Counted from the stretch's first letter, positions 13,338 to 50,554 are shown. The stretch is 64,000 bases of DNA from a virus (IMGVR_UViG_3300042940_001755); one strand, 5' to 3'. Program-made: numbers and translations. Notes: a model not told the origin generated them from the letters alone.

Positions 13338-13367
13338 TCTTTCATATAAGATACCCTCATTTGCGCG
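13338..13367 (-). promoter_or_regulatory. Class B T7-promoter-like motif (sense CGCGCAAATGAGGGTATCTTATATGAAAGAAAG)
   Basis: One of five copies of CGCGCAnAAAnnnGTATCTTATATGAAAGA; CTTATATGAAAG resembles the CACTATAGGGAGA core of T7/SP6 promoters. Confidence 0.5.
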
Positions 13368-13532
13368 TCCTCTTTTAGCCCTTCAGGTCAACACTTACAT
13401 CGAACACAACTTCGTCATCGCGCAAAGACAACTGTTCACATTGCTCTGGCGTTAACTTGATGATAACATCTCTCACATCTTGGATGTGTTCAGGCTGGTC
13501 TTTTGTCACAACTACTAATCTGAACGCTGGCA

Positions 13533-13913
13533 TCATGCACCTCTCTTTTCTAGTTTATAAACAGTGTGGCCGACAGTAGTAATCTGTAGACCAGCGTAAA
13601 GGTCATCAAGATTCTGCAAGTCAATATCAGAATCAATGAAGAATATATCATCTGGCTCAGGTTCTTTGCCAATCCAGATGTTCTCTACTGCCAGCTCATT
13701 CTGCGCTGGGTTCCAGCTCAACATCACATAATTGTACTTCTCATCAATAACCACATCAACCTCCGTTGCATACTCTAAATTACAGCCATTACACTGAAAT
13801 GTCTCTTTACCTTCAAAAGGTGCTGAAGGATGAAACACATTACACCCACAATTACAGGTAAAAGACTCACCCGCGATCCTTAACATAGATTGCTGCATCA
13901 TTCTTCCACCCAT
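13533..13913 (-). CDS. hypothetical zinc-ribbon protein (CNCGCN ... CNGCN)
   Basis: Two CxxC pairs. Confidence 0.45.
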   Translation of the reverse strand: MGGRMMQQSMLRIAGESFTCNCGCNVFHPSAPFEGKETFQCNGCNLEYATEVDVVIDEKYNYVMLSWNPAQNELAVENIWIGKEPEPDDIFFIDSDIDLQNLDDLYAGLQITTVGHTVYKLEKRGA

Positions 13914-14110
13914 TCGCTGTACTCATTGAAGATACGCTCACACTCCTCAAAAGAGACTGCCAGGAAAGCAGAAGGCCCAATAGATGCTAACTCACTACCG
14001 TTAGCATTTCTAATTACCAAGCGCTGTGAGGCTGTGTTCAAGTCCATCACTGCCACGTGGTGCGGATCTATTACTAATCGCGCTGTTGCTGCTTTTATTT
14101 CTATCTTCAT
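13898..14110 (-). CDS. hypothetical protein (70 aa)
   Basis: Co-oriented ORF. Confidence 0.35.
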   Translation of the reverse strand: MKIEIKAATARLVIDPHHVAVMDLNTASQRLVIRNANGSELASIGPSAFLAVSFEECERIFNEYSEWVEE

Positions 14111-14112
14111 TA

Positions 14113-14502
14113 TCAGTGCACCACAGCAGGAGGGACATTCCCTACAATAAGGAACCCAATACCAGGCTGCACTAACAAGAAGAAGATAAGTGCTGCACCC
14201 ATGTGTGAAAGCTCCCCTGATGTATTGATCTCCATCACACCAAACTCACCAGTCTGTTGTTCTTCAATACTTGCGATAATGGCACCAAAGGCTGTTTTGC
14301 AATCAGGGTACTCCACAAGCGGACTACAGATATTCTCGCTCATGTTCAAGTACTGGATTGTCCAGCCTGCCGATTTAACAGCTGCATCTCTTGCAAGGAC
14401 TTGATCAGGCCCAAGTAACCGCCCTTGCATGAACTCCCACGTCGCCAGCGCATTGTAGCCTTCACGGAGTGACTCTGGTATTGGTTGGTAAATTATACTC
14501 AT
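14113..14502 (-). CDS. hypothetical protein with C-terminal TM segment (129 aa)
   Basis: Hydrophobic C-terminus ALIFFLLVQPGIGFLIVG. Confidence 0.45.
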   Translation of the reverse strand: MSIIYQPIPESLREGYNALATWEFMQGRLLGPDQVLARDAAVKSAGWTIQYLNMSENICSPLVEYPDCKTAFGAIIASIEEQQTGEFGVMEINTSGELSHMGAALIFFLLVQPGIGFLIVGNVPPAVVH

Positions 14503-14714
14503 TGTGCATTTCTCTCTTTACAGTGGTTAATAAATTCTGCGTGGATCTCATCACACGCTTCTTCGCTCAATAAATGGGCTATATCATAGCCCCCGATCAC
14601 TACATCCCGTAGCACTCCATCTTCCAGGGTGACTCTCATTCGGATTTCGCCGAGTTGAATAATTGCTACATCTTCGTTACGCTTATCTGCCATACCAACC
14701 TCTCTTAGGGCCAT
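14499..14714 (-). CDS. hypothetical protein (71 aa)
   Basis: Co-oriented ORF. Confidence 0.35.
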   Translation of the reverse strand: MALREVGMADKRNEDVAIIQLGEIRMRVTLEDGVLRDVVIGGYDIAHLLSEEACDEIHAEFINHCKERNAQ

Positions 14715-14770
14715 TGTGCAATGCTTCTTTGCATCTTCGTTTAAACTCCCACCATGTTAGCGGGACTTTC

Positions 14771-14959
14771 TTAGTTTGAGCAGCCATACACCGCTCCACT
14801 CAGACTTGATGCGCCACGCCATGCAGACTCTTCAAGCTGTCTACGTGTTGGTTTCTGACGCGGCTCAGGATGCGTCAACTCTGCCTTCTCGGTTCTTTGA
14901 GGTCTGATAGGCATTTCGCGTGTCCTCATCATTACTTCACAATACTGCATTACGCTCAT
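14771..14959 (-). CDS. hypothetical basic protein (62 aa)
   Basis: Class A motif ~25 nt upstream, then an AGGAGG RBS. Confidence 0.4.
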   Translation of the reverse strand: MSVMQYCEVMMRTREMPIRPQRTEKAELTHPEPRQKPTRRQLEESAWRGASSLSGAVYGCSN

Positions 14960-14982
14960 GATTCGCCTCCTGTAGTTGCGGA

Positions 14983-15005
14983 CAGTTAAGGAGCATGTCC
15001 AGGCC
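14983..15005 (-). promoter_or_regulatory. Class A motif copy (sense GGCCTGGACATGCTCCTTAACTG)
   Basis: Consensus match. Confidence 0.5.
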
Positions 15006-15012
15006 CTTGAGG

Positions 15013-15267
15013 TTACTCTTCCTCTTTCAAATAATCAATAAAATAGGACAGCTCACTTTGGAGCAGTTCTAGCTTAGCTATGAACGCAGACATCCCGAAG
15101 TTCTTATCGGCATGTAATCTCACCTTGCCATGGCAACTGGCGATCTCTACGAAGGTATATCTCTCCGCAGGCTTTCCTTGGTTGGCCACAACACCATCAT
15201 GGCACACCACTGCACCGGTGAAATGACTGTCAATCTCATTGAGCCACATTCGTGAATTGTATGTCAT
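15013..15267 (-). CDS. hypothetical protein (84 aa)
   Basis: Co-oriented ORF. Confidence 0.4.
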   Translation of the reverse strand: MTYNSRMWLNEIDSHFTGAVVCHDGVVANQGKPAERYTFVEIASCHGKVRLHADKNFGMSAFIAKLELLQSELSYFIDYLKEEE

Positions 15268-15467
15268 GACTTATTTCTCGGCCAATTGCTAAAGTCATGG
15301 TTGCACACAAGAAGAATGAGACCCGACATCGCGACCCATCTGAATCCAAACACAGTAATAGCTGCATACTGGGTCTGCCAGTGTTCTAAACTTACAAGCG
15401 CACGTAGCTCTGCGGACAACCCTAACACTTGCGCCATGATAAACGCTAACTTCAAAAACAATATCAT
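15264..15467 (-). CDS. hypothetical small membrane protein (67 aa)
   Basis: Two hydrophobic segments. Confidence 0.4.
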   Translation of the reverse strand: MILFLKLAFIMAQVLGLSAELRALVSLEHWQTQYAAITVFGFRWVAMSGLILLVCNHDFSNWPRNKS

Positions 15468-16021: not shown

Positions 16022-17341
16022 TTAGCATATAACACCTGCTCTTGCTCTCTTGCGAATGTCTTCAAGGGAATCATCACAGTACGGCTGACCATTGAAGTAA
16101 TAGTCAACAAAGTCTGGATGTGTCAATCTGCCGCCCTTAGAGCGCTTACCAGGGTCTGTGACAGGGTCTTTCACAGTATCCACCCATTTGCCATTGATCT
16201 CCATCGCTGAAGTCTTTTGAGCAAACTTATAGGTGTCTCTGTTTAGTTTCTGTAGCAAGCCGCCTCCAGAACCATACACGACATTCTCGGCTGCGTAACC
16301 TTCTTGTTCCACTACTTGTGTCAGCTTTACTAACGTCTCGAAGTCAATACCATCCCCTTGAATGATGCCGACATTGCTCAAGACCTTGTAGCCTTTCGAG
16401 TTAACTGTGCTTTCAAAATACGCGTCAAGTATCTCCAGGATTAGAGGGATTACTTCGACAGCATCACCACTGTCAGGGCGGATAACAGCCTTGATTTTTC
16501 TTCTCTGAATTTCTGCACCGAAGACATTACAGAACATGGAGGTATCATTGTAGATATCATATCCGTCTAACACGATTGACACTATGCCACCATCAGGGAT
16601 AGCATCTAGTACTCTACGTAAATATCCTCCCTGATTGTCCCTTCCGTACGCACATTGAACACTATGTTCCGTCGCAGGGATAGAGAAGCCAGCCATTCTG
16701 CAGAAGTAATTGTCACGCGCCATTATCAGCGCTTGCAGGTTATCAGTTCCTTGGAAGTTAACTAAATGTGCCACACCACCAATTGCAGCTGACTCTCTGG
16801 AAGTTACGCCCCTGGCACCAAAGTCATGGAGAGCGTACGCAGCCATTTCAGGTACATCTGAAGTCTGTGCATACAACGATTCCAACAGCAATCGAGCCTT
16901 TAGGCCGTTAGAGGCAATCGTTGTAGGATACCAGATAGCTCTCTGCAACGCCGTTTCAATATACGACGCTAGCCAGAACAGTCTTGGATCTGTTGTCTCA
17001 ATCACCACTAAGGGTGTCCGAGATGGTACCACAGAGCCTTCAGGTAAGCCTTGTATTAGCAGTGGCAGAAAGCCATTGTGCTCGTCCACAATAATCTCCC
17101 AACCAATCTTATTAAAGGGCACCCCATGCGCGGAGAAGAGTTTCTCCGCTTCTCTTATATCCCCGTGAGTAACAGGCGTTGAGAGATACTCACGGATGAA
17201 CATTTGAAGACCAAAGAAGCAAGTAGCTTCGTTTGCTACTCTCGCTTCGATATAGGCGAACTGGCCTGTGCTGCCTTCTGGGTAGAATGCTGCATGTGAA
17301 GCTTTGTAGCTGTCAGCGTTTAAGATTAAATTGTGACTCAT
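16022..17341 (-). CDS. nadV: Nicotinamide phosphoribosyltransferase (NAMPT/NadV)
   Basis: N-terminal ADSYKASH motif diagnostic of NAMPT, plus ~440 aa length and the GDG/GSGGGLLQ phosphoribosyltransferase core. Confidence 0.85.
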   Translation of the reverse strand: MSHNLILNADSYKASHAAFYPEGSTGQFAYIEARVANEATCFFGLQMFIREYLSTPVTHGDIREAEKLFSAHGVPFNKIGWEIIVDEHNGFLPLLIQGLPEGSVVPSRTPLVVIETTDPRLFWLASYIETALQRAIWYPTTIASNGLKARLLLESLYAQTSDVPEMAAYALHDFGARGVTSRESAAIGGVAHLVNFQGTDNLQALIMARDNYFCRMAGFSIPATEHSVQCAYGRDNQGGYLRRVLDAIPDGGIVSIVLDGYDIYNDTSMFCNVFGAEIQRRKIKAVIRPDSGDAVEVIPLILEILDAYFESTVNSKGYKVLSNVGIIQGDGIDFETLVKLTQVVEQEGYAAENVVYGSGGGLLQKLNRDTYKFAQKTSAMEINGKWVDTVKDPVTDPGKRSKGGRLTHPDFVDYYFNGQPYCDDSLEDIRKRARAGVIC

Positions 17342-17682
17342 TGTTGTTCTCCTCTAGTCAGATTAGCCGCGTTGTCTTCGGCGTAGGTGTTAGGGTTTCT
17401 TTCAGGGTAGTAGCTTTTGCTGAAGCTGCTGCAGTCAGCGACATCAACTCTTTTCTCATACCCTACAGTAGCTTCAGGGTGACTGTGTAACCAGATGTCG
17501 CCCATTCTACTAGCGCCTGTGACGCGGTAGCGATTGCCCTCGAAGGTGCAGAATAGCTTGTACTCTGCGATAAGCTCCTTGAAGGCTATCTGATTGATTG
17601 CTGGGAGCCGCATCAGTAGTAACGCAAATCTCGCATACGTCACTGTGTCTGGCCCATGATCGATAAAGTCATCTACATCCAT
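17338..17682 (-). CDS. hypothetical protein (114 aa)
   Basis: Co-oriented ORF between nadV and the NMNAT-Nudix gene. Confidence 0.45.
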   Translation of the reverse strand: MDVDDFIDHGPDTVTYARFALLLMRLPAINQIAFKELIAEYKLFCTFEGNRYRVTGASRMGDIWLHSHPEATVGYEKRVDVADCSSFSKSYYPERNPNTYAEDNAANLTRGEQQ

Positions 17683-17688
17683 TATTTC

Positions 17689-17988
17689 TTACCCCACAAA
17701 GTTGATTTGAATGGCGAAGTTAGAGCCATCATAGAATAGCCGCTCGATAACAACCTGCTCCACATCAAAAAGGCCTACATCTGTATCGACAATATAGGGC
17801 TCACTTGGTGCGTAGTTGTCATCATCTTCTTTCCACTCGGCTAGCCACTCAGCGACGGCTAGCTCGGCCACTTCCTGCGCTTTACTGAACTCGTTTCCAT
17901 GAAGGACTGCTAAAACTTCCGCTACTTCTTGCACAGCCAATACGACAATGTACTTGGCATCAGTCGGTACTTCTAACTTACTGTACAT
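17689..17988 (-). CDS. hypothetical highly acidic protein (99 aa)
   Basis: Co-oriented ORF. Confidence 0.45.
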   Translation of the reverse strand: MYSKLEVPTDAKYIVVLAVQEVAEVLAVLHGNEFSKAQEVAELAVAEWLAEWKEDDDNYAPSEPYIVDTDVGLFDVEQVVIERLFYDGSNFAIQINFVG

Positions 17989-29200: not shown

Positions 29201-32200
29201 CTAAAATTCTACCATGTCACCATCTGGGTCAAAGTCAGCTAGCTCTAGCCGCCCTGTGTCATAATGGTATTGTGCCCCTCTGACATTCCCTGTCAGACCT
29301 GTGTAGCGCGATTTAAGTACACGCATGAGGATTGTATTACGCTCCTTAGGATCTTCAGCGATAAGATTACGAGCGAAAGAGATTATGTCGAAGGAAATCT
29401 GCTTGATAGATCCAGAGTTGTGTGTCACTGTATGATTCTCTAATAGGAACCTGCCGTTTCCGCTTAGCTGAAAGCCGAAGTAAGGCTGCACATCAAGCTT
29501 CTCAATAAGAATACCACGCTTCAAAGGATCCGTGCGACGGACCTTAGCAACAATTCTAGTGGATTTCTGTGCAGGAATCTTTTTAATATCTCCTGAGATT
29601 GCCACTTCAAAGATAGTGCTTCCGTTAGAACCTGTATAGCTACCAGAAATTATTCTAGGGTGTACAGTGGAATACAAGCCTAGTGAACGTGCAATTCTGA
29701 CCACCTTTCGAGCAGTGTCCTCACACTTCTGGTAGAAGTAGTAGGCATTGTCTTTCACATTATAACAGCCATCTGTATCAATCAAGCCAGCGAGCAAATT
29801 GTACCTTACCGCCTTAGAGTTAAATACATAGACGTCAGGTACATGCTTATTCTCCCACACGCCTAGTTGACGAAGTTTGTCAAGCATTTCACCTTTCAGT
29901 CCCGTGTTGAAGTTGAAGTACTCCCGGTTTGGATCAGAAGGCGCTAATAATTCAGCGCCAATCTCGCCAGCTACTCTGTTTGAAATACCAAGATCACTGG
30001 CATCCATTATTCGGAAGGCAGACTTCGAACCATCGCCAAGCCAAGCTCCGAATGAATACGCAGGAATCAAGACAGGGATTTCAGGCAACTCATAACCTGT
30101 AGAGTAGTGCTGTTTGCACCTAAACTGCCAATTTTCTGACTCCTTCAAAAAATCACCAAGACGGACATCTCTCATGCGATCATTGTGTGACAGAGTTAAG
30201 ATATGGTCCTCATTGCAAATGAACGAATCATTAGAGGTCTTGGTGGTGATACGGTACATCTGTTGCTCGCCATCAAATAGGCGTAACACTTCACGAGGCA
30301 GACCATCATCGCCCATTAACAGGTCGCCAACTTTGATATCCTGCACTGCCCTCGCTCTTCCATTAGATAACAAAATTCCTGTATCGTACGCTAAGCAACC
30401 TCTGATATCATCTATAGAAGGCAGTCTCCCCTCCTCGAATGACTTCTGCCCCGATTGGGCCTTTCTCAGATGGCTCACCAGCCCAATCCAGACATTGTGC
30501 TTCTTGACAATGCGCAGTAGATGATTCATGATCTTGTCAACAGCTTCGTTACCGGTGAGATCCTCCGCACCTTCTGAGACCAAAATGGTAATGTGATCAA
30601 TGAAGAGATACTTACAACCCATAAGCGCCATATACTCCAGCTGATTCACAATAGACACGTCAGCCATCGATCCTTGATGATCTAGACAGAATACTCTGTC
30701 GTTTCCGAAAACATCTTCGAAAGCTGGTTGCAAATCCTCGATGGAGATCTCTTCTGCTGCAGGGTTACGCATTAGCTGCATCCCAGCTAACTTTCTAGCG
30801 GTCTCCGCAGGCGACTCTTCTAGCGCGATAATTCCTATCGCGTCTTGTGTCGTCTGAATGATATGCAGCATTGTCTCGCGTAACATAGTAGACTTACCTG
30901 AATTGTAAGTAATAACGCCATTTCCCAGCACAAAACGGTTGTCCGCGTTAACTTCAAATCCGTAAAACTCGCCGATGCCTATTGGCTCTACTACGAAACT
31001 AAAGCCGATCATGTTGCCTGCCTTATACTGTCTGGCTTGACGGCGTTTCTTTTCGGGCCAAGTAAGATACTCACTGACTAATACAGGGAACATCTCGCCA
31101 TTGGTTCGTATAGCTAGTCGATGAGAATCGTTGCATACAAAGGAAGTGCCATCTTCCAATGTAATGCGATGCATGAGTTCTTCACCTGTAAACAGCGTCA
31201 GAACTTCGCGGGGCATATTACAAGGGCCCATTACATAGTCACCAACCTCGATGTCTTCAACGCAGGACACTCCTCCGTCTAACATCCGAATCATAGTGCC
31301 TGGCGCAAAACAGCCTGTGCCACTAATGAAGAGGGCGATTTCACCCATTCTCATGCCCTTTAACTTAGAGTTTAAGCCCCCTAGACATGGCGGGTAAGGC
31401 AAGCTCTCAGCTTCATTGTACTCGACGAGAGCTTTCCAGATCTCCTCTTTACTGACAATCCCTGCAGGTGTATATCTGCCGGCTTCGAAGATCGCTGTCA
31501 TAAGGGCTGGGGACCCTTTGGTCGTCAACATCTCAGATGCGTCTTTGACTGGGAGCTTCGCTATCTTGATCTTCTCGGCACCGATAATCTTGATACACTC
31601 TGCTAGACACTTCTGCCCAGCTTCATCATTATCTAAGCAAAGGACAACTTCAGCGAATGAGCGGACCCAGTCACGATGTTTCAGCAGCGCCTTTGTGCCA
31701 GAAGCACTTGGCAGAGATACTACAGGGTAAATCTTATTATACTTACTGTGGGCCGCTTGAGCGATACTCATCGCATCTAACTCGCCTTCTGTGATAATGA
31801 GACGTTTGCCATCACTAGAGAATTTATCACGACCGAACAGTTCATCAGATTTACCGACCCAGTAGAACTCCTTATCTTCTACAACGCGGCACTTAAAGGC
31901 TTTATCGCCATATGGGTAGAAGTGTTTTGCTACAGTACCATCTGCTGCCACCTCAGCTCTTACCCCGAAGAACTCTGTAACACTTTTGGTAATTTCACGT
32001 TCTTTAAAGCCTCTAATCGGCAGACCTTGAATGTCTGCTATTTTTTCATGCCCGCTCACATACAGCTCCTCTTCTACTTCGAAAGAATCCCTGTTCTTAC
32101 CACCAGGGCGTTTACCTTTGTTGCAGACGAAACACCACCAATCATCAGGCCCGTATTCCACCTTGCCATCACTGCTGCCACACACATCGCAGCTTACGTG

Positions 32201-32209
32201 TTTAGCCAT
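29201..32209 (-). CDS. T7 gp4-like bifunctional primase-helicase, interrupted in-frame by two inteins (extein ~538 aa)
   Basis: N-terminal zinc ribbon CDVCGSSDGKV..CFVCN. Walker A is split as ISGTG|C...N|SGKST, and helicase motif H4 as IRG|C...N|SGSIKQ. Confidence 0.9.
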   Translation of the reverse strand: MAKHVSCDVCGSSDGKVEYGPDDWWCFVCNKGKRPGGKNRDSFEVEEELYVSGHEKIADIQGLPIRGFKEREITKSVTEFFGVRAEVAADGTVAKHFYPYGDKAFKCRVVEDKEFYWVGKSDELFGRDKFSSDGKRLIITEGELDAMSIAQAAHSKYNKIYPVVSLPSASGTKALLKHRDWVRSFAEVVLCLDNDEAGQKCLAECIKIIGAEKIKIAKLPVKDASEMLTTKGSPALMTAIFEAGRYTPAGIVSKEEIWKALVEYNEAESLPYPPCLGGLNSKLKGMRMGEIALFISGTGCFAPGTMIRMLDGGVSCVEDIEVGDYVMGPCNMPREVLTLFTGEELMHRITLEDGTSFVCNDSHRLAIRTNGEMFPVLVSEYLTWPEKKRRQARQYKAGNMIGFSFVVEPIGIGEFYGFEVNADNRFVLGNGVITYNSGKSTMLRETMLHIIQTTQDAIGIIALEESPAETARKLAGMQLMRNPAAEEISIEDLQPAFEDVFGNDRVFCLDHQGSMADVSIVNQLEYMALMGCKYLFIDHITILVSEGAEDLTGNEAVDKIMNHLLRIVKKHNVWIGLVSHLRKAQSGQKSFEEGRLPSIDDIRGCLAYDTGILLSNGRARAVQDIKVGDLLMGDDGLPREVLRLFDGEQQMYRITTKTSNDSFICNEDHILTLSHNDRMRDVRLGDFLKESENWQFRCKQHYSTGYELPEIPVLIPAYSFGAWLGDGSKSAFRIMDASDLGISNRVAGEIGAELLAPSDPNREYFNFNTGLKGEMLDKLRQLGVWENKHVPDVYVFNSKAVRYNLLAGLIDTDGCYNVKDNAYYFYQKCEDTARKVVRIARSLGLYSTVHPRIISGSYTGSNGSTIFEVAISGDIKKIPAQKSTRIVAKVRRTDPLKRGILIEKLDVQPYFGFQLSGNGRFLLENHTVTHNSGSIKQISFDIISFARNLIAEDPKERNTILMRVLKSRYTGLTGNVRGAQYHYDTGRLELADFDPDGDMVEF
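29417..30397 (-). mobile_element. Full-length intein (~327 aa) with a LAGLIDADG homing-endonuclease domain, in helicase motif H4
   Basis: Begins CLAYDTGILL and ends FLLENHTVTHN followed by Ser. LAGLIDADG motifs: FGAWLGDGSK and LLAGLIDTDGCY. Confidence 0.85.
30902..31312 (-). mobile_element. Mini-intein (~137 aa) inserted in the helicase P-loop (Walker A)
   Basis: Begins CFAPGTMIRMLDG (block A) and ends FVLGNGVITYN followed by extein Ser; no endonuclease domain. Removal restores GTGSGKST. Confidence 0.75.
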
Positions 32210-39192: not shown

Positions 39193-39290
39193 GATACATC
39201 TCCAATATAGGGTTAGAGGACGACGGGATTGCCGCCCTCACAGATACTACGGTGACACAGATTAGAGACTGCGCCTCTCTCTTTTACTGC

Positions 39291-40534: not shown

Positions 40535-40866
40535 TCTAGCTCCTTTTCTTCTAAGCTAAGAGCCTCACCATTGACCATCACTATCTCGCCAGCACCAATG
40601 CTTCTAACAGCAGCAACGCTATCGATAAAGTCAACTAAGTCTTGGGAGAGTCTGTCTAGACTCGGCTTATTGCGGTACACTGCAATCAGGTTTACACGTG
40701 GACTCCCCTCTTCCCACTTAGTATGTAAATACCCAGAACTCAACACCCACACTGTCGTGACCGGCACAGGTGGTGTAAAATTAGGTCGTGACTCAGCTGC
40801 CAGAGCTGCGTAGTACGTATCATTTCCGCCCATTGTTTCCTCTATAATTGGATTAAGTGAAAGCAT
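40531..40866 (-). CDS. hypothetical protein (111 aa)
   Basis: Co-oriented ORF. Confidence 0.45.
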   Translation of the reverse strand: MLSLNPIIEETMGGNDTYYAALAAESRPNFTPPVPVTTVWVLSSGYLHTKWEEGSPRVNLIAVYRNKPSLDRLSQDLVDFIDSVAAVRSIGAGEIVMVNGEALSLEEKELE

Positions 40867-41617
40867 ATTCGCTCTCTAATACTGCATTGATGTCAAGTGA
40901 GCCGATTTCAAGACCTTCCCAGTTACCTGAGATATCATTCATCAGCGCTACTAGTGGATCGCTAGAGTACAGCTCAACAAACTTCTCTCTAGCGACTCTG
41001 AACAATACATCCATATCCGCACACAAACATCCGTAAGAGTCGTGGATGGTTGTCACAGGGAACTCACAGCCCACCTTAATCATCATTAAGTGTGCTGCAT
41101 CCATGCTATGAATGATATTAGGCGCTGCTCCTTGGCCTTGCTTGCGCTTAGCAGGGACTCGTTCTTCCTTGTGAAGTAGGCTAATCTTGATATCCTTGTG
41201 TCCATAAGACAGGATAACAGGCTTAATAGTGCCTTCTTCATAATGCTGAACCACTTTGAAGCCCGTTACAGGGACAGTCCAGCTGAGGAATTCACCTCTT
41301 TTCTCAGCAGCAATCCCTGCATTACTGAATATCTCAAGAAGCTTCATGGGTTTATTCATGCTATCTTTGCAGCTAGCGTAGATTAGTCTTCCCATGAATG
41401 CTCCCCATTTCCTGTCCAGGTCTAAGAGCGAATCGATGCCGTGCTTCTTGGCATCTTCTATGACCTGCTCAGACATCCCATAAGAAACTGCACCGTATGG
41501 GATAGTCATTACTCCCGCTTGTGTTCCGTAGATGTCGTTAGTTTCTACGCGTAGTTGGTCGCTTGTGTTATCTGACAAAATTGCCAAAAATCTTCTTTCT
41601 CGCTTTCTTCGCTGCAT
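40853..41617 (-). CDS. Single-subunit (T7-like) RNA polymerase, C-terminal segment (exon 2 or C-terminal half of a split gene)
   Basis: AGVMTIPYG .. APNIIHSMDAAHLMM .. VTTIHDSYGCL .. terminal EYAFT aligns with the T7 RNAP C-terminus (SVMTLAYG .. PNFVHSQDGSHL .. LIHDSFGT .. FAFA). The real 5' boundary is unresolved. Confidence 0.8.
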   Translation of the reverse strand: MQRRKRERRFLAILSDNTSDQLRVETNDIYGTQAGVMTIPYGAVSYGMSEQVIEDAKKHGIDSLLDLDRKWGAFMGRLIYASCKDSMNKPMKLLEIFSNAGIAAEKRGEFLSWTVPVTGFKVVQHYEEGTIKPVILSYGHKDIKISLLHKEERVPAKRKQGQGAAPNIIHSMDAAHLMMIKVGCEFPVTTIHDSYGCLCADMDVLFRVAREKFVELYSSDPLVALMNDISGNWEGLEIGSLDINAVLESEYAFT

Positions 41618-42008
41618 TAGCCGCAGCCTCTACCGTTGCAAAGGTACCTACAGTCTTGTTAACACCCCCTTCACAGACTCTAGCACGGTATTTACCAGAC
41701 TTCGTTGCAGTTACACCTTTAGCGCCGGTCTTCGCTCCTTTATTAGGAAGCGTGTTAATACGGTTCTCAGCCACTGAGGCTGCCCTCAGATTAGATATCT
41801 TGTTATTAGCAGGATTTCCATCCTTATGATCAACAACCTTCCCTTTCGGCACTGCTCCTTTATGCATCTCAAACACAATACGATGCACCATTGTCTTCTT
41901 GCCATTCTTCTCTACTTGCACATGCCCTTTGCTATTAGGCGAACCTGCCTTGCGGCCATTCTTGTGCAATAGCCCACCATTCTCTTTATCATAGAGATAC
42001 TCTACCAT
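41568..42008 (-). mobile_element. HNH-AP2 homing endonuclease ORF inserted within the RNA polymerase gene
   Basis: HNH motif GHVQV..MVHRIVFEMHKG..VDHKDGNPANNKISNLR and AP2 domain GVTATKSGKYRARV..TFATVEAAANA. It has its own strong RBS AAGAGGAGG and is in a different frame from the RNAP pieces. Confidence 0.8.
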
Positions 42009-42111
42009 ACAACCTCCTCTTTTGTAGCGACCAGCTACTGCTGCATATTCCGATGCAGGCCAGACTATATCACGATAGCAAATAGCTACCTCCCCCGTTT
42101 CCTGACACTTG

Positions 42112-43653
42112 TCAGTACGCCTTACGGCTAGTCGTTGAACCTTCTTTCAAACCATACTTCCCAGCATTATTTGAAACCTTGGCTGCTGATTGGCCATTAG
42201 CATCACACCATTGGGCTGTTCCAGCAATTAAAGGGATTTTACAAGCGCCTGTAATTAAACGCTTGACTATCTTTCTACGTTCTTTCTTGTCCTTGATACG
42301 ATTCCAGAATATGAAACAAGCAGAATCTTCTAGGAAATGATTTGCCTCTCTGTAGTTCTTTAGTCGTTCCCCTAAGACAACTCTGAGATCACTCCCACGC
42401 TCTGCAGCTCGCACTTCAGCCTTCATTTCTGTAACGACTGTGACGTAATTATCAGCAGCCGCCACTAATTTAGGGTCTAATTCTGCGATTGTCAGCGCGA
42501 TAAAGTTCCAGAGAGAATTTGCAACATACGCATACAAGTCACCAGGAAGTACTGATTTGACAAGATTCACATAGGGCGCAGATGTTTCATCTCTCGTCAG
42601 CATAGCTAGATGTTGACTTCCATTGGTGCTTCCGTCTATGAAGCACTCAAGATGGCTCACAAAAGTCTCTGGATTGCCACTTCGCCATGCTGCTTCATAC
42701 TCCATACAGGCTGCTAAGAACTGCCAGCACTTGTCAGCGCCCATCCACCCTTTAAAGAGCTTGGGTGATGTAGCATACGCCATGATTAGCTCATGATTAT
42801 CATCTACCCACTGCACTCTTTCCTCCAAAGGGATCTTGTCAGTCTTTGCTTTGTCTTCTCTGGCAGAAGTGCCCGCCCAGTTACTGGCAATTGATATCTT
42901 CAGCCATTTAAAGCCAATAGCTCCTAGCGGTTTTGCATCAGCTCGTAGTAGAAGGCCTTTGGCAACATCAGCGCCTTGTTCATGGAGGTAAGCAGATGCG
43001 ACATAGATACGTCCTCTGAAGTCTGTGTAGTAACCATGGTAGAAGATAGCACCTGCCAGATCTTGCGCCATTGTCAGGACTGTGTTGACTTCTCTACCTT
43101 TGGTGATTCTTGCCTCCTTTGAGACTTGTTTCCAAATATCTGAGAAGGCTTCCTCACGGTACTTATGCGCCCATATAGCAATTGCCAGCACTCTCTCGTT
43201 TACTTTCCATCCTACTGCTTGGGCACGGTTAACAGCGTCCAATACCATTGCAGGAACAGCCGGTAATACTGCTCGCGTCTTGATAAGTGGGTAAGTCAGC
43301 TGATCGTGTGTCCTAGAAGTCCAAGGAGAGTAAGGAATAAGTGAAGGGTAGACTGTAGTACTCTGTTTGGAACACTTCCGCCAAGCCTCCACAATAGCCT
43401 CATCATTCAGAACAGCCACTGTGTAGGCACTCTTCTTCCCTATACGTTCTACCTGTATCTTGAGAATCCTGGCAGCTTCAAGGTCGTAGACAAGATCTGC
43501 TGCTGCTTGTGCTCTTACTCTGGAACTGGGATCTCTGGAGAGTTTCGAGCCGAGCGCTGTCAGCACCTCTGACAACACTATTGGCTCATTATATTTAGCC
43601 CTTGTGTACAGAAACAACACCTCCGTAACAGTAGGACAAAGTTCACTAAGCAT
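42112..43653 (-). CDS. Single-subunit RNA polymerase, N-terminal segment (exon 1 plus read-through into the insertion)
   Basis: YHGYYTDFRGRIY and ECFIDGSTNGSQHLAMLTRDE align to T7 RNAP DWRGRVY and DGSCSGIQHFSAMLRDE. The last ~90 codons have no RNAP similarity, so they are probably intron or insert-derived. Confidence 0.8.
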   Translation of the reverse strand: MLSELCPTVTEVLFLYTRAKYNEPIVLSEVLTALGSKLSRDPSSRVRAQAAADLVYDLEAARILKIQVERIGKKSAYTVAVLNDEAIVEAWRKCSKQSTTVYPSLIPYSPWTSRTHDQLTYPLIKTRAVLPAVPAMVLDAVNRAQAVGWKVNERVLAIAIWAHKYREEAFSDIWKQVSKEARITKGREVNTVLTMAQDLAGAIFYHGYYTDFRGRIYVASAYLHEQGADVAKGLLLRADAKPLGAIGFKWLKISIASNWAGTSAREDKAKTDKIPLEERVQWVDDNHELIMAYATSPKLFKGWMGADKCWQFLAACMEYEAAWRSGNPETFVSHLECFIDGSTNGSQHLAMLTRDETSAPYVNLVKSVLPGDLYAYVANSLWNFIALTIAELDPKLVAAADNYVTVVTEMKAEVRAAERGSDLRVVLGERLKNYREANHFLEDSACFIFWNRIKDKKERRKIVKRLITGACKIPLIAGTAQWCDANGQSAAKVSNNAGKYGLKEGSTTSRKAY

Positions 43654-44931: not shown

Positions 44932-44943
44932 AAGCTTCCTGTA

Positions 44944-44992
44944 AGAAAAAAAAAAATAAGGGGAGTACAGACCACCCCGAAGGGTGGTCTGT
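44944..44992 (-). terminator. Intrinsic terminator T4
   Basis: rc reads CAGACCACCCTTCGGGGTGGTCTG TACTCCCCTTATTTTTTTTTTTC. Confidence 0.75.
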
Positions 44993-45000
44993 ATAGTCAG

Positions 45001-45733: not shown

Positions 45734-45810
45734 TGTGTTTAAAGTAGAGAGACGGAATTGTCTCTCTACCTGAATAGACTGTGGTCTGGTAAAACGGGAT
45801 ATCCGCTGCC
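45734..45810. repeat. Post-stop hairpin-pair element copy a (AGAGAGACGGAATTGTCTCTCT plus ACGGGATATCCG)
   Basis: Perfect 8-bp inverted repeat around GGAATT plus a GGATATCC palindrome; four copies in 45.7-48.7 kb, each starting at a stop codon. Confidence 0.7.
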
Positions 45811-46231: not shown

Positions 46232-46298
46232 GGATAAGGCAGAGAGACGGAATTGTCTCTCTGCAGCGGTCTGATGAAACGGGATATCCGTTACCGCA
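46232..46298. repeat. Post-stop hairpin-pair element copy b
   Basis: Same two palindromes. Confidence 0.7.
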
Positions 46299-46725: not shown

Positions 46726-46801
46726 GGTAATACTCCAAATAAGATAAAATAATTGTGACCGGAATTGGTCTTGAAGGAACATCTTATGATGCAGGTGCCG
46801 C

Positions 46802-47077
46802 TTACGCAGCAGCTTTAAAGAATTTGACGACAGAGTACCCAATATCAGCATCACCTGTCAACTCCATTCCACCGAACTGCTCTGCCAAATACGCAGCGCG
46901 GTCAGCGTCATAGCTGAGGACGCTTAATTGCACTTCTGTGATGCCGACACTGATACGACCCATTTCATCACGGCGACTGTCATCGTAGTTGAAGCGGTCA
47001 TAAGCCACTTCGTTAAAGACCATACCTAATTTCAACGCTGCTGCTACTACTTCTTTTGCCAATACTAATGTGCTCAT
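46802..47077 (-). CDS. hypothetical protein (start MSTLVLAKE, 91 aa)
   Basis: RBS GGAGATTCAAAATG; class B motif ~70 nt upstream. Confidence 0.45.
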   Translation of the reverse strand: MSTLVLAKEVVAAALKLGMVFNEVAYDRFNYDDSRRDEMGRISVGITEVQLSVLSYDADRAAYLAEQFGGMELTGDADIGYSVVKFFKAAA

Positions 47078-47136
47078 TTTGAATCTCCGAATAAAATAAT
47101 TGTGACCGAATTGGTCATGAAAGGATACCTTTATCT

Positions 47137-47163
47137 CTTTCATATAAGATACTGCTTTCCGCG
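47137..47163 (-). promoter_or_regulatory. Class B T7-promoter-like motif copy
   Basis: Sense CGCGGAAAGCAGTATCTTATATGAAAGAGATAAAG. Confidence 0.5.
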
Positions 47164-47173
47164 TATTTGCTGC

Positions 47174-47476: not shown

Positions 47477-47552
47477 TTGTGTTTAAAGTAGAGAGACGGA
47501 ATTGTCTCTCTACCTGAATGACCAGATTGTGGCGCAGGATATCTGCTGCTGG
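47477..47552. repeat. Post-stop hairpin-pair element copy c (variant second hairpin GCAGGATATCTGC)
   Basis: Same first palindrome. Confidence 0.7.
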
Positions 47553-48573: not shown

Positions 48574-48597
48574 AATAATAATAATAATAATAATAAA
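48574..48597. repeat. (AAT)8 microsatellite in the 5' leader of 48271..48561
   Basis: Read directly; absent from the paralogous leader at 47461-47480. Confidence 0.9.
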
Positions 48598-48677
48598 ATG
48601 TGTAAAGTAGAGAAACGGAATTGTTTCTCTACCTGAATGGACTGCGGTCTGATGAAACGGGATATCCGTTACCGCAT
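48598..48677. repeat. Post-stop hairpin-pair element copy d (AGAGAAACGGAATTGTTTCTCT variant)
   Basis: Compensatory changes keep the stem paired. Confidence 0.7.
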
Positions 48678-48943
48678 TATCTGTTGAACCATTTCACCAA
48701 GCTGTAAACTGTCAAACCGACAGCTGCACCGAGAATGATTGGGTTAACTGTTACAACTGCCGCAGCTGCTGAACGTGCTACAAATGGTAATACAACTTCC
48801 ATACCAAGTGCTGTTACTGCGATTTGTGATTCTACCGCTGCAAGACCAACGCTCAAAACTACTGGCGCCATTTGTGTTGCCACTGCTGTTCCTGCTACTG
48901 TTCCTGCTGCTGCTGCTGTTACTTCTTGTGTTAATGCTTTCAT
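48677..48943 (-). CDS. Small Ala/Val-rich membrane protein, family A copy 2 (88 aa)
   Basis: Paralog of 45451..45717. Confidence 0.55.
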   Translation of the reverse strand: MKALTQEVTAAAAGTVAGTAVATQMAPVVLSVGLAAVESQIAVTALGMEVVLPFVARSAAAAVVTVNPIILGAAVGLTVYSLVKWFNR

Positions 48944-49004
48944 GGTAATACTCCGAATAATTTAATTGTGACCGGAATTGGTCGTTGAAGGGATATCTTT
49001 ATCT

Positions 49005-49033
49005 CTTTCATATAAGATATCCCCTTTTGCGCG
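49005..49033 (-). promoter_or_regulatory. Class B T7-promoter-like motif copy
   Basis: Sense CGCGCAAAAGGGGATATCTTATATGAAAGAGATAAAG. Confidence 0.5.
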
Positions 49034-49034
49034 T

Positions 49035-49253
49035 TTACATGTCTACCAATTTAGACTGAAACTTGTCCTTCAGCACACAATGCACGCACACATGTACATG
49101 CTTGTTTGTTGCGCTGGAGAAATGGTAAAACGAATCGTAACGCTCTACTCCACCACATTCATCACAATACCCGTGATTGCGATCTGGAGTGGTGATGACA
49201 ACTTCTTCTTTAGATTTTACTGATGACATGGTAATACTCCCAAATGGATTCAA
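49035..49253 (-). CDS. hypothetical zinc-ribbon protein (CDECG .. CVHC)
   Basis: Two CxxC pairs. Confidence 0.4.
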   Translation of the reverse strand: MNPFGSITMSSVKSKEEVVITTPDRNHGYCDECGGVERYDSFYHFSSATNKHVHVCVHCVLKDKFQSKLVDM

Positions 49254-49626
49254 TTAATTGCGTGCCCGTGGACCAACTGCGAAGTAGAGCTTGTCACGCA
49301 AGCGCCATTTCTTCGTGGCAATGAGACCTTCGTGGAACTCGTGATACAAGATCACCGCTGCATACGCTACCGTTGCAAGCAGCGTTGTCCAAATACATGC
49401 CAACCCATACGTGCTCATACGCTCATCCCTGCTAAGATTTTCTCTACCCGTTCTGCCAAAGAATTGAAATGGTCTTCGCTGTCGCCACTCAATTCTTTAA
49501 AGGCAACCCCTGCTGCTGTTAAAATCTCTGTCAAATCTTCTACATCTTGAACTTCCAATACTGCACATAGTTTTAAACTAATCATAACGCCCTCGCTAAA
49601 GTTAGGAGCAGAACCATTTCTACTCC

Positions 49627-49654
49627 TTTCATATAAGATACTGCTTTCTGCGCA
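49627..49654 (-). promoter_or_regulatory. Class B T7-promoter-like motif copy, abutting a GAAAGGAG RBS
   Basis: Sense GCGCAGAAAGCAGTATCTTATATGAAAGGAGTAGAAATG; it precedes two small untracked ORFs (11 aa, then ~56 aa at about 49415..49585). Confidence 0.5.
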
Positions 49655-49655
49655 T

Positions 49656-49928
49656 TTACACTCTTATGGAACGCACCCAACTGTTGTACTCTTCTGAACC
49701 GACAATGCCGAAGGCCTTCTCAGCTGGTGTTAACACTTTGCACCCAGCCTTCTGCCACACTGCTTTCACTTTGTTGTCTGTTGTCGGCAAGCAAGCTGCT
49801 TGTGGCTCCCCATTCTTATTCACAATATACAGAATTGCGAATTGTGATTGCCAATAACGGCTGGACAGTTCTTTTGGGGTTGCAAAGGTTGGCATCCCAG
49901 GCAATACTTCGTAAGTCTCAAATAACAT
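49656..49928 (-). CDS. hypothetical protein (90 aa)
   Basis: Co-oriented ORF. Confidence 0.4.
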   Translation of the reverse strand: MLFETYEVLPGMPTFATPKELSSRYWQSQFAILYIVNKNGEPQAACLPTTDNKVKAVWQKAGCKVLTPAEKAFGIVGSEEYNSWVRSIRV

Positions 49929-49987
49929 AATATTTACTCCACTAGATTGATAAAAGGCGCAGAACCATTCCTACGCCTGCCACTACA

Positions 49988-50485
49988 TCACAACTTAATC
50001 GCTTTGATTATTTCATTATCCGTGAGTCTACTGAGATACTTTACATCGAGACCTATAACAGTTAACTCCGCATGCACTTCAATTAGTTTAGCCCGTTCCC
50101 ACTTATGCAAAGCCTCAATAGGTGCAACTTTCAACAGTCTACCGAGAGCAAGCTTGGTGTACAGTTCCCCTCTCCTTTTTGCCTCTGCTTTTGACATACG
50201 CTTTAGCGCGGCCAGATTAGCAACTATGAAGTTAACATGGATCACTGATTTGACCCTCTCCGTCTGGAACTCAAGACTGACGGAGTTTGCGGCTTCCTCG
50301 TAAGTCCTGTATAGCTTCCCGGCTGCCAGGAATAGAGGTGTTTTAGTTGTCACCTCCATGCAGTGCTTGACTACAGCGCCAGGACCGATGTCTACTATGG
50401 GCGTAGTGGTGCAGCTGAGGTTCAGCGCACTATTGAATTCCTCTACAGAACCCTCCCATTCTTTTAGTTCGATAAAATTGTTCAT
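49988..50485 (-). CDS. hypothetical protein (start MNNFIELKEW)
   Basis: The class B motif overlaps the ORF-track N-terminus; GGAGAACTATTATG. Confidence 0.45.
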   Translation of the reverse strand: MNNFIELKEWEGSVEEFNSALNLSCTTTPIVDIGPGAVVKHCMEVTTKTPLFLAAGKLYRTYEEAANSVSLEFQTERVKSVIHVNFIVANLAALKRMSKAEAKRRGELYTKLALGRLLKVAPIEALHKWERAKLIEVHAELTVIGLDVKYLSRLTDNEIIKAIKL

Positions 50486-50524
50486 AATAGTTCTCCTAAA
50501 TGACTGAATAACGGGATTGTTATC

Positions 50525-50554
50525 CATATCATATAAGATACCTAAAAATGCGCG
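50525..50554 (-). promoter_or_regulatory. Class B T7-promoter-like motif copy
   Basis: Sense CGCGCATTTTTAGGTATCTTATATGATATGG. Confidence 0.45.

What the first reader, a model, noticed from the sequence alone, without database searches (positions are those of the whole stretch)
13338..50554. Class B T7/SP6-like promoter motif (GTATCTTATATGAAAGAG) upstream of five genes
- Five intergenic copies of CGCGCAnAAAnnnGTATCTTATATGAAAGA lie at 13338, 47137, 49005, 49627 and 50525, all in sense orientation on the minus strand.
- The 3' half resembles the -8 to +6 region of T7, SP6 and K11 promoters (CACTATAG GGAGA), with a likely +1 G in GAAAG.
- In two cases the predicted transcript start runs directly into the RBS (GAAAGGAG).
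- Four of the five copies serve the duplicated membrane-protein module and neighbouring small genes; one serves an early-region gene.
- A weaker plus-strand look-alike (CGCTCATATGAAAGTTATAC at ~620) sits in the left-end non-coding region.
Basis: partly seen in the sequence, partly recalled or inferred. Interest (0 to 1): 0.6.

Follow-up and report, generated by a model that had tools for sequence, protein, structure and literature searches.

The report
Conserved early promoter of a two-polymerase phage
The repeated motif is real and is very probably the early-gene promoter of a large, uncultured phage family; it looks like a T7/SP6-type promoter but is most likely read by a second RNA polymerase carried inside the virus particle, not by the polymerase gene next to it, and the same promoter also turns up in chromosomal satellite-like islands of marine bacteria.

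Summary
There are five sense-strand, intergenic copies of YGCG(S)(R)AAA-N4-5-(G/A)TATCTTATATGA, against 0.13 expected by chance.

Comparative data make it a promoter:
- The same invariant 13-mer, GCG box and A-tract occur 1-4 times upstream of the RNA polymerase gene in nearly every related contig. I collected 139-143 distinct copies.
- All copies in the polymerase-gene loci are in sense orientation. The median distance to the next Shine-Dalgarno-led ORF is 45 nt, and a stem-loop often starts at the G of TATATG|A.
- The motif is absent from 10 kb downstream of the polymerase gene and from about 1 Mb of head-module DNA.

The layout matches SP6 (GGT at -12..-10, C at -7, G at +1).

The family has a second, T3/K11-like motif class that sits before middle and late genes. 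It also has a second polymerase: a T7-like RNAP fused to a MuF minor-head domain.

My best reading is an N4-like programme in which class B is the early promoter of the virion-borne polymerase (about 0.5). The rivals are the 750-aa polymerase encoded in the window and the host polymerase.

The fusion gene was not seen in this genome, of which 30.6 kb remains unread. Nothing here is tested experimentally.

The parts
50525..50554 (-). Class B copy 1: CGCGCATTTTTAG-GTATCTTATATGA, 3' part diverged. It is the first promoter of the early region and lies 45 nt upstream of ORF 50485..49988.
49625..49654 (-). Class B copy 2: TGCGCAGAAAGCA-GTATCTTATATGAAAGG. It lies upstream of an 11-codon mini-ORF and ORFs 49585..49415, 49418..49254 and 49229..49035.
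49004..49033 (-). Class B copy 3: CGCGCAAAAGGGG-ATATCTTATATGAAAGA. It lies upstream of the 88-aa membrane-protein ORF 48943..48677.
47136..47165 (-). Class B copy 4: ACGCGGAAAGCA-GTATCTTATATGAAAGA. It lies upstream of ORF 47077..46802.
13338..13367 (-). Class B copy 5, the distal copy: CGCGCAAATGAGG-GTATCTTATATGAAAGA. It lies upstream of ORF 13297..13046, which is followed by a hairpin plus T12 terminator-like site. DSS3_VP1 has an analogous distal copy.
50506..50525 (-). Stem-loop GGATAAC-AATCCC-GTTATTC directly after copy 1; predicted 5' leader hairpin.
49605..49626 (-). Stem-loop GGAGTAGAA-ATGG-TTCTGCTCC after copy 2. A covarying twin lies at about 49975-49955.
48970..48983 (-). Stem-loop GACC-AATTCC-GGTC in the leader after copy 3.
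47104..47116 (-). Stem-loop GACC-AATTC-GGTC in the leader after copy 4.
13320..13335 (-). Stem-loop GAAAC-AATTCC-GTTTC directly after copy 5.
40853..43653 (-). T7-like RNA polymerase gene (about 685-aa product) lying downstream of four of the five copies. It is interrupted by a group I intron that carries an HNH ORF (42008..41568).

Best explanation
Class B is the early-gene promoter of this phage lineage. It is a bipartite element of about 30 bp: AAA-YGCG-S-R-AAAA, 2-3 variable bases, then GGTATCTTATATG|A.

A single-subunit (T7-like) RNA polymerase binds it and starts at or next to the G of TATATG|A. The resulting mRNAs have leaders of about 45 nt that often begin with a stem-loop.

The most likely reader is not the RNAP encoded at 43653-40853. 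It is a second T7-like RNAP fused to a MuF (SPP1 gp7-type) minor-head domain, which relatives encode next to the portal gene. That enzyme would be packaged and ejected with the DNA.

The proposed programme resembles N4:
1. The injected polymerase fires the few class B promoters.
2. These express ORFan early genes and the 750-aa polymerase.
3. That polymerase then uses a different, T3/K11-like promoter class for middle and late genes.

Shown: the motif, its conservation, its position and orientation, its absence elsewhere, and the existence and co-occurrence of the two polymerases in relatives.

Inferred: promoter activity, the start site, packaging of the fusion protein, which polymerase reads which class, and the presence of the fusion gene in this particular genome.
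For: Reality and conservation:
- 5 copies against 0.13 expected.
- The exact 16-mer occurs in 96 IMG/VR stretches. About 35 of these, by eye, carry the same upstream box.
- In 80 loci fetched around RNAP homologues, copies with up to 2 mismatches occur 1-4 times in nearly every locus that has upstream flank. All but one are on the RNAP strand, 0.9-5.4 kb upstream of the RNAP start, and none in sense orientation lies in the 10 kb downstream.
- Across 102 distinct copies, GTATCTTATATGA is 94-100% invariant. Mismatches fall only at +3 onwards, and the GCG box and A-tract sit at a fixed distance.

Promoter behaviour:
- 129 of 139 copies have a Shine-Dalgarno-led ORF within 250 nt, with a median leader of 45 nt.
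- RNA fragments starting at -1 or +1 have their first base paired in 45-50 of 143 cases, against 6-19 for starts at -2..-6 and 16 for a start at +2.
- Many copies directly follow a terminator-like hairpin.

Not a host promoter:
- There is no -35 consensus at 16-18 bp.
- Sigma-70-like sites are not enriched in the early region (16 found, 15 expected).
- The full motif occurs in only 12 stretches among 185,579 species genomes, all in phage contigs or mobile islands.

Two classes and two polymerases:
- Relatives have a second motif, CCCGTTAAATTAACCC, after the RNAP gene and in the head module: 34 sense and 2 antisense copies in 976 kb, where true class B copies number 0.
- The cultured relative DSS3_VP1 has 3 B-like copies (GGCATCTATAATGA), two at the start of its early region and one distal. 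It also has at least 9 copies of AATAGGGTGCGTTAAAGAGGGGGA before terminase, phoH, portal, tail and middle genes.
- VP1 gene 00028 combines Phage_Mu_F with RNA_pol (27.1 bits against a cutoff of 22).
- A family of at least 342 such fusions conserves the T7 motifs (DxxGR, A, B, C), and its profile hits only T7 RNAP in the PDB (E 1.8e-7).
- At least 5 contigs carry the fusion gene, the 750-aa RNAP gene and class B together.

Covariation:
- The window's 750-aa RNAP differs from relatives in the specificity-loop region by a 12-13-aa length difference and different strand residues.
- The window also lacks CCCGTTAAATTAACCC. It has instead CCTGrN-CATGYC..TWAAC-TG in 6 copies.
- Class B is nevertheless identical in the window and its relatives.
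Against: - The MuF-RNAP gene was not seen in this genome. The window is part of a 107.67-kb contig, of which 30.6 kb could not be read. Its presence is inferred from relatives on either side of this phage.
- No data show that the fusion protein is packaged, ejected or active.
- The motif contains no N4-type hairpin.
- Assigning the two motif classes to the two polymerases rests on position and timing logic plus one covariation contrast, not on biochemistry.
- A -10-like TATCTT (TATAAT in VP1) lies inside the motif, so use by the host polymerase cannot be excluded.
- The stem-loop anchoring signal is moderate. When upstream sequence is included in the fold, many predicted helices extend into the motif itself.
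Confidence: 0.5

Rival explanations
1. Class B is read by the 750-aa T7-like RNAP encoded at 43653-40853. A little polymerase is first made by read-through or a weak host promoter. It then amplifies its own gene and the early ORFans from class B by positive feedback. The other motif class would be read by the MuF-RNAP or would be an operator or terminator.
For: - The polymerase is encoded in the window and is conserved wherever class B occurs.
- The layout is SP6-like.
- The specificity-loop region is highly conserved among relatives that share the invariant motif.
Against: - Class B is found only upstream of this gene and never before middle or late genes.
- A T3/K11-like class occupies those positions.
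- The window's polymerase has a clearly different specificity loop, yet the same class B sequence.
- This reading leaves the packaged polymerase without an early promoter class.
Confidence: 0.2
2. Class B is an unusual host-RNAP early promoter, the positional analogue of T7 A1-A3. TATCTT (TATAAT in VP1) would serve as the -10 element, and the GCG/A-tract would act as an upstream or factor-binding element.
For: - It sits where host promoters sit in T7-like genomes.
- TATCTT keeps the three key -10 positions, and VP1 has a perfect TATAAT in the homologous block.
- Chromosomal islands without any polymerase gene in view use it.
Against: - There is no -35 consensus or TG extension.
- The two candidate -10 elements are in different registers in the two clades.
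- Invariance over 13 contiguous bases, together with a GCG box at fixed spacing, is unlike sigma-70 sites.
- The motif is essentially absent from bacterial genomes outside mobile elements.
- A packaged polymerase would then have no obvious role.
Confidence: 0.17
3. It is not a promoter. It could be an RNA-level leader or processing element, an operator for a conserved DNA-binding protein, or a recombination site that moves small gene cassettes (Xer/dif-like or PeSL-like).
For: - It is associated with hairpins and with duplicated ORFan cassettes.
- There is a loose resemblance of the two halves to XerC/XerD arms (my own comparison from memory of the dif sequence, not a tool result).
Against: - Orientation is strict, and the distance to the next start codon is tight at about 45 nt.
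- Conservation ends abruptly at +2/+3.
- The motif often follows a terminator directly.
- Read as a Xer site, the central region would be 9 bp (known sites have 6-8) and would be the most invariant part.
- In the islands it lies in the control region, not at the island borders.
Confidence: 0.08

Closest known systems
T7-group phage promoters, especially SP6 (ATTTAGGTGACACTATAGAAGAG)
   Same: - One contiguous conserved block that ends a few bases past the start.
- GGT at -12..-10, C at -7 and G-A-A at +1..+3, with the same spacing as SP6.
- An A/T-rich stretch upstream and an A/T-rich melting region at -6..-1.
- Transcripts that begin with a stem-loop, as in T7 phi10.
   Different: - It extends further upstream: a GCG box at about -20..-23 and AAA at about -25..-27.
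- The core sequence is unrelated.
- It lies only upstream of the free-standing RNAP gene, where T7 has host promoters.
- It is invariant across polymerases that are only 46-66% identical.
Coliphage N4 early promoters and the N4 three-polymerase programme (knowledge from the literature, e.g. PMC4496689)
   Same: - A few early promoters are clustered before early genes that include a second T7-like polymerase.
- A T7-like polymerase is built into a virion protein.
- Different promoter classes serve different times of infection.
   Different: - N4 early promoters need a 5-7-bp stem, 3-nt loop hairpin, and class B has none.
- The N4 virion RNAP is a 3500-aa podovirus ejection protein. Here the polymerase is fused to a MuF minor-head domain (about 1400-1560 aa), in a lineage whose cultured relative is a siphovirus.
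- N4 late genes use the host polymerase. Here a T3/K11-like class covers both middle and late genes.
Helper-matched promoters in satellites (P2/P4 late promoters; virophage promoters matching giant-virus late promoters)
   Same: P4-like integrative islands of marine Gammaproteobacteria place a class B-like motif before their antirestriction, primase and integrase operon. Some also carry the second motif class. This is as if they were tuned to the helper's transcription machinery.
   Different: No helper relationship is shown. The known cases use host RNAP plus an activator (P2/P4) or eukaryotic-virus machinery, not a phage single-subunit RNAP.
PeSL (promoter-early stem-loop) cassettes of T4-type phages
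   Same: Promoter-plus-stem-loop units flank small ORFan genes in a plastic early region that contains duplications.
   Different: PeSL promoters are sigma-70 early promoters, which class B is not.

Membership tests
T7-group single-subunit RNAP promoter | Contiguous conserved block of about 20-25 bp that ends a few bases after +1 | tested here: met
   The information profile of 102 copies is high from about -27 to +2 and drops at +3/+4.
T7-group single-subunit RNAP promoter | A/T-rich upstream element, an A/T-rich melting region and a purine (G) start | tested here: met
   A-tract at -15..-19 and TTATAT at -6..-1, then G-A. The start site itself is not mapped.
T7-group single-subunit RNAP promoter | A cognate T7-like RNAP encoded by the same phage | tested here: met
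   The RNAP at 43653-40853 matches PF00940 and T7 RNAP in the PDB (E about 1e-30). A second, MuF-fused RNAP occurs in relatives.
T7-group single-subunit RNAP promoter | Located downstream of the RNAP gene, before middle and late operons | tested here: not met
   All sense-strand copies lie upstream of the RNAP gene, and there are none in head modules. The only exceptions are one distal copy each in the window and in VP1.
T7-group single-subunit RNAP promoter | Specific initiation by the phage polymerase in vitro or in vivo | not testable with these tools
   Needs transcription assays or 5'-end mapping.
N4-type early (virion RNAP) promoter | A few copies at the start of the early region, driving genes that include the second polymerase | tested here: met
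N4-type early (virion RNAP) promoter | A virion-packaged T7-like RNAP encoded by the phage | tested here: inconclusive
   The MuF-RNAP fusion is present in relatives and co-occurs with class B. It was not seen in this genome's readable 77 kb. Packaging is inferred from the MuF domain only.
N4-type early (virion RNAP) promoter | Promoter hairpin (5-7-bp stem, 3-nt loop) upstream of the start | tested here: not met
   The conserved block has no internal inverted repeat. The hairpins lie downstream and vary in sequence.
Sigma-70 promoter | A -35-like hexamer 16-18 bp upstream of a -10-like hexamer | tested here: not met
   There is no consensus at the expected positions. The early region is not enriched in sigma-70-like sites.
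Sigma-70 promoter | A -10 hexamer with T-12, A-11 and T-7 | tested here: inconclusive
   TATCTT fits in this clade. TATAAT fits in VP1 but in another register.
Xer/dif-type recombination site | Two 11-bp arms separated by a 6-8-bp central region | tested here: not met
   By inspection of the profile, the spacing would give a 9-bp centre, and that centre would be the most conserved part. The dif sequence was recalled from memory.

The most novel reading that the evidence does not exclude
A very large, mostly uncultured lineage, distantly related to the Naomviridae, may run an N4-like transcription programme with a T7-like RNA polymerase fused to the MuF minor-head protein. The lineage counts more than 500 contigs in IMG/VR. 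Its cultured relative is a siphovirus with dU-DNA.

In this reading, class B is the promoter of that injected enzyme. P4-like integrative islands in marine Gammaproteobacteria and Sphingomonadales would have copied this promoter, and the second class as well. Their antirestriction, replication and integrase operon would then stay silent until the helper's own polymerase enters the cell. That would make the promoter a polymerase-specific infection sensor.
Probability: 0.3. Interest if true: 0.85.

Novelty: new variant of a known kind. Interest (0 to 1): 0.66.

Why it matters
- It gives a defined, testable promoter consensus for a widespread phage family that has no transcription data. The full-text search found no paper containing the motif, and the Naomviridae paper does not discuss promoters or the polymerases.
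- It points to a second route by which phages deliver a single-subunit RNA polymerase with their DNA, through fusion to MuF.
- It offers orthogonal polymerase/promoter pairs for synthetic biology.
- If the island copies respond to the helper's polymerase, they would be a new way for satellites or defence islands to sense infection.

Tried and rejected
- Near-identity search of the region against INPHARED phages found no match.
- Full-text search for the motif found only unrelated hits.
- I looked for a virion RNAP in the window's giant ORF. It has no PHROG, Pfam or PDB signal and no similarity to the VP1 MuF-RNAP or tape-measure protein. It is a 2751-aa protein that follows a 4092-aa tape-measure protein.
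- I read the first A' copy plus a downstream TATTAT as a sigma-70 promoter. Only 9 of 33 upstream copies fit, against 6 of 46 downstream copies, so I dropped the idea.
- I tested covariation of the A' centre bases with the RNAP specificity loop. The loop is too conserved among relatives to be informative, and the variable base is the centre of a GTTAA-N-TTAAC palindrome.
- I tried to reach this genome's head module. Three exact-protein look-ups (a look-up of P0145, returned a different phage) and one exact-DNA walk in metagenome contigs (no match) still left 30.6 kb unread. The profile search listed only the 120 best of 342 fusion proteins, none on this contig.
- I searched for a homologue of the island ORFan in the phage loci and found none.
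- Pfam and PHROG searches of the genes downstream of class B gave no hits.


Full report
**1. The observation**

The motif is real. GTATCTTATATGAAAGA with up to 3 mismatches occurs 5 times, all on the minus strand. The chance expectation is 0.13, and none of 100 shuffles reaches 5. The 30-nt bipartite pattern gives 4 hits against 0.00 expected.

The copies are at 13338-13367, 47136-47165, 49004-49033, 49625-49654 and 50525-50554. The last one keeps GTATCTTATATGA and then diverges. All lie between ORFs and in sense with the genes, which all run on the minus strand. TATCTTATATGA is the most over-represented non-trivial 12-mer of the window.

Four details in the finding need correction:
- Only the 49625 copy reads GAAAGGAG. 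There the GGAG is paired in a 9-bp hairpin and precedes an 11-codon mini-ORF.
- The four clustered copies are the early ones, upstream of the RNA polymerase gene. The 13338 copy is the distal one.
- The duplicated 95/96-aa genes are preceded by hairpin elements, not by the motif.
- The plus-strand look-alike near 620 shares only ATATGAAAG and is at chance level.

**2. The genome**

The window is 100% identical over 18,457 nt to a 107,670-bp metagenomic contig, JGI 3300044516 Ga0453750_0000058. It has no close DNA relative among deposited phages.

Reading the minus strand, the gene order is:
1. a 2751-aa protein, a tail fibre and a protease-like protein;
2. a GC-rich non-coding block and small ORFan genes;
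3. the RNA polymerase gene;
4. T7-like DNA polymerase, primase-helicase and ribonucleotide reductase;
5. NAD-salvage genes, ligase and RNase H.

The roseophage DSS3_VP1 (Naomviridae) has the same order.

The RNA polymerase is T7-like (PF00940; T7 RNAP in the PDB at E about 1e-30). It is a single gene interrupted inside motif B by a group I intron (RF00028, 68 bits) that carries an HNH ORF. Relatives have an unsplit protein of 743-763 aa that ends in SEY(C/A/S)F.

**3. Comparative evidence that class B is a promoter**

Distribution in relatives:
- The exact 16-mer occurs in 96 IMG/VR stretches. About 35, by eye, have the same upstream TGCG(G/C)AAAA box, and the RNAP gene lies 1-3 kb downstream on the same strand.
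- An RNAP alignment retrieved at least 567 relatives. In the 80 loci kept, copies with up to 2 mismatches occur 1-4 times in nearly every locus that has upstream flank.
- All but one of these copies are on the RNAP strand, 0.9-5.4 kb upstream of the RNAP start. None in sense orientation lies in the 10 kb downstream. The single exception is a minus-strand look-alike inside the RNAP coding sequence.

Conservation profile over 102 distinct copies:
- GTATCTTATATGA is 94-100% invariant.
- The tolerated mismatches all fall at +3 and beyond.
- Upstream there are fixed-distance AAA, YGCG, S, R and AAAA elements.

Position relative to genes and structure:
- 129 of 139 copies are followed within 250 nt by a Shine-Dalgarno-led ORF. 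The median leader is 45 nt, with an interquartile range of 36-55.
- Many copies directly follow a GC-rich hairpin and T-run.
- RNA fragments starting at -1 or +1 (the G of TATATG|A) have their first base paired in 45-50 of 143 cases. For starts at -2..-6 the figure is 6-19, and for a start at +2 it is 16. This is what a 5'-terminal stem-loop anchored at the start site would give.
- The signal is moderate. When upstream sequence is included in the fold, many helices reach into the motif itself.

The downstream genes are ORFans.

**4. Not a host promoter**

- There is no -35 consensus 16-18 bp from any -10-like hexamer.
- Sigma-70-like sites are not enriched in the early region (16 found, 15 expected).
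- The full motif occurs in only 12 stretches among 185,579 species genomes. All are in phage contigs or mobile islands.

A -10-like TATCTT lies inside the motif, and DSS3_VP1 has TATAAT. They are in different registers.

**5. T7/SP6-like layout**

With +1 at the G, class B has GGT at -12..-10, C at -7 and GAA at +1..+3. SP6 has exactly these bases at these positions. Class B also has an A-tract where T7-type promoters are A/T-rich. The comparison uses the SP6 sequence from my own knowledge and the profile.

**6. Two promoter classes**

A second motif, CCCGTTAAATTAACCC(T), is almost as conserved in relatives.
- One copy lies just before the early region.
- One lies 0.4-3 kb after the RNAP gene, about 50 nt before a conserved gene.
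- Further copies lie in the head module: 34 sense and 2 antisense in 976 kb, where true class B copies number zero.

DSS3_VP1 shows the same split.
- Three B-like copies (GAGAAAACTAAGGCATCTATAATGA): two directly after the tape-measure gene at the start of the early region, and one distal.
- At least nine copies of AATAGGGTGCGTTAAAGAGGGGGA, a K11/T3-like sequence. All are in sense, before terminase, phoH, portal, tail and middle genes.

The window lacks the IMG-type second motif. It has six copies of CCTG(R)N-CATGYC..TWAAC-TG, with a covarying stem, before middle genes. The core YTWAAC matches T3 CACTAAAG and VP1 CGTTAAAG.

**7. Two polymerases**

- VP1 gene 00028, annotated 'minor head protein-like', is a Phage_Mu_F domain followed by an RNA_pol domain (27.1 bits against a cutoff of 22). 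It matches T7 RNAP residues 724-841 in the PDB.
- The family is large: 79 and then 342 proteins of about 1400-1560 aa, many with both Pfam domains on record.
- It conserves the DxxGR motif, the motif A aspartate, the motif B K...YG and the motif C HD. Its profile hits only T7 RNAP in the PDB (E 1.8e-7).
- The gene sits directly after the portal gene.
- At least five IMG/VR contigs carry this gene, the 750-aa RNAP gene and class B copies together.

MuF (SPP1 gp7-type) proteins are head-internal. Their fusion partners have been proposed to be delivered into the host (PMC5512222).

**8. Which polymerase reads class B**

Three arguments favour the MuF-fused enzyme:
- Class B is confined to the region that must be transcribed first and that contains the 750-aa RNAP gene. 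The other class sits where that RNAP's promoters are expected.
- A packaged polymerase needs an early promoter class. Class B is the main conserved candidate; the only other conserved element there is the single A' copy that precedes it.
- The window's 750-aa RNAP differs from relatives in the specificity-loop region, both in length and in strand residues. The window's second class has changed accordingly, but class B is identical.

This is an inference, and I put it at about 0.5. The 750-aa RNAP (0.2), the host polymerase (0.17) and non-promoter functions (0.08) remain possible.

The main gap is that the fusion gene was not seen in this genome. About 77 kb of the 107.67 kb could be read, and 30.6 kb could not.

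**9. Class B in bacterial islands**

About ten genome hits lie in chromosomal islands of Halieaceae/Cellvibrionales, Crenothrix, Pseudohongiella and Sphingomonadales.

In five of these hits, and in four of five further islands fetched through the ORFan's homologues, a class B-like motif lies upstream of a conserved 150-210-aa ORFan. The distance is about 50-130 nt where measured. The fifth fetched island, L191, has only a 3-mismatch variant. The motif often has a stem-loop starting at the G.

In at least three of the fetched islands (L190, L191, L194) that ORFan heads an operon with an ArdA-like antirestriction gene, a Prim-Pol/PriCT_2 primase and a P4-type integrase. Defence cargo sits beside them (type I R-M, GmrSD, Cap4 with AAA_15). 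Two islands also carry the second motif on the opposite strand.

This looks like satellites that have adopted their helper's promoters. No helper relationship is shown.

**10. Verdict**

- The promoter reading is well supported by comparative evidence (about 0.85-0.9 that it is a promoter).
- The T7/SP6-like character is supported.
- The implied reader, the neighbouring polymerase, is probably wrong.
- As a promoter it is a new consensus for a known kind of element. Two things raise its interest: the context of a MuF-fused second polymerase in an N4-like scheme, and the copies in satellite-like islands.

Noticed in passing
window 40853-43653 (intron core 42041-42323; HNH ORF 41568-42008): The T7-like RNAP gene is split inside motif B (RKIVKR | GVMTIPYG) by a group I intron (Rfam RF00028, 68 bits) that carries an HNH/AP2 homing-endonuclease ORF. 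Relatives L040 and L061 have insertions at other conserved sites of the same gene. Exact splice junctions were not determined: the Rfam 5' end lies about 64 nt upstream of the junction suggested by the protein alignment.
   Followed up: partly
window about 23250-23290, 20700-20740, 20450-20490, 14970-15010, 10600-10640, 5600-5640 (minus strand): A second repeated intergenic motif, CCTG(R)N-CATGYC..TWAAC-TG(N)(Y)C, occurs in six copies 15-45 nt before middle-gene start codons. Its stem covaries (AACA/TGTT, GTCA/TGAC, AGCA/TGCT, GACA/TGTC). Its core resembles T3 CACTAAAG and the VP1 and IMG CGTTAAA motifs.
   Followed up: partly
L195 (DSS3_VP1, MN602266) 21242-25633; P0110-P0306; L197, L198, L281: A T7-like RNA polymerase domain is fused to a Phage_Mu_F minor-head domain, encoded next to the portal gene. 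There are at least 342 proteins in metagenomes. In GenBank the VP1 protein is annotated only as 'minor head protein-like'. I found no description of this fusion in the papers searched.
   Followed up: yes
L177-L181, L184-L188, L190-L194 (bacterial chromosomal islands): Class B-like motifs head the operon of P4-like integrative islands in marine Gammaproteobacteria and Sphingomonadales. The operon runs ORFan, ArdA-like, Prim-Pol/PriCT_2, P4-type integrase, with defence cargo beside it. L190 and L192 also have CCGTTGGATTAACCC or CTGTTGGATTAACCC on the opposite strand about 140 nt upstream.
   Followed up: partly
window 29201-32209: The primase-helicase gene (1002 aa) appears to carry two intein-like insertions: Hint-type signals at residues about 295-440, and Hom_end_hint plus a LAGLIDADG homing endonuclease at about 605-880.
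   Followed up: partly
window about 45755-45780, 46250-46275, 47495-47520, 48615-48640, 18005-18030, 39205-39235, 46765-46780: A family of intergenic hairpins has variable, covarying stems and a conserved loop C-AAT(T/C)CC-G. They occur after class B copies and also alone, directly before ribosome-binding sites. Their function is unknown; they could be a processing site, a stabiliser or a protein-binding loop.
   Followed up: no
window 50740-50900, 8240-8390, 950-1200: Three GC-rich non-coding blocks share GTGTGGCG/GGCGGCGGC-type sequence. In two cases the block is followed by CCCCTTAT...TATCT. Similar blocks precede the first A' motif in relatives. They might be an origin or module-boundary elements.
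   Followed up: no
window 1260-1331 and 1-330: There are four tandem copies of a 21-bp unit (AGTAAGCCAAACCTTACCCTC). There is also a direct repeat of about 160 bp, rich in CTTTAAAG, at the very start of the window. The second copy is absent from the JGI contig, so it is probably an assembly or terminal-repeat effect.
   Followed up: partly
window 49586-49621 and about 49935-49961: Two related mini-ORFs, MVLLLTLARAL (overlapping the next start codon as ATGA) and MVLRLLSI, each lie inside a covarying hairpin (GGAG..CTCC and GGCG..CGCC). They could be leader peptides or a coincidence.
   Followed up: no
window 44932-45000, 12961-13045, 4680-4746, about 1690-1710: Terminator-like sites: a GC-rich hairpin followed by CC(T)TATTTTTTTTTT(T). 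One closes the single-gene unit driven by the 13338 class B copy.
   Followed up: no
window 16022-19193: NAD-salvage genes are present: nicotinamide phosphoribosyltransferase and an NMNAT-Nudix fusion. DSS3_VP1 also has a nicotinamide phosphoribosyltransferase gene. Whether this phage also has dU-substituted DNA was not examined.
   Followed up: no
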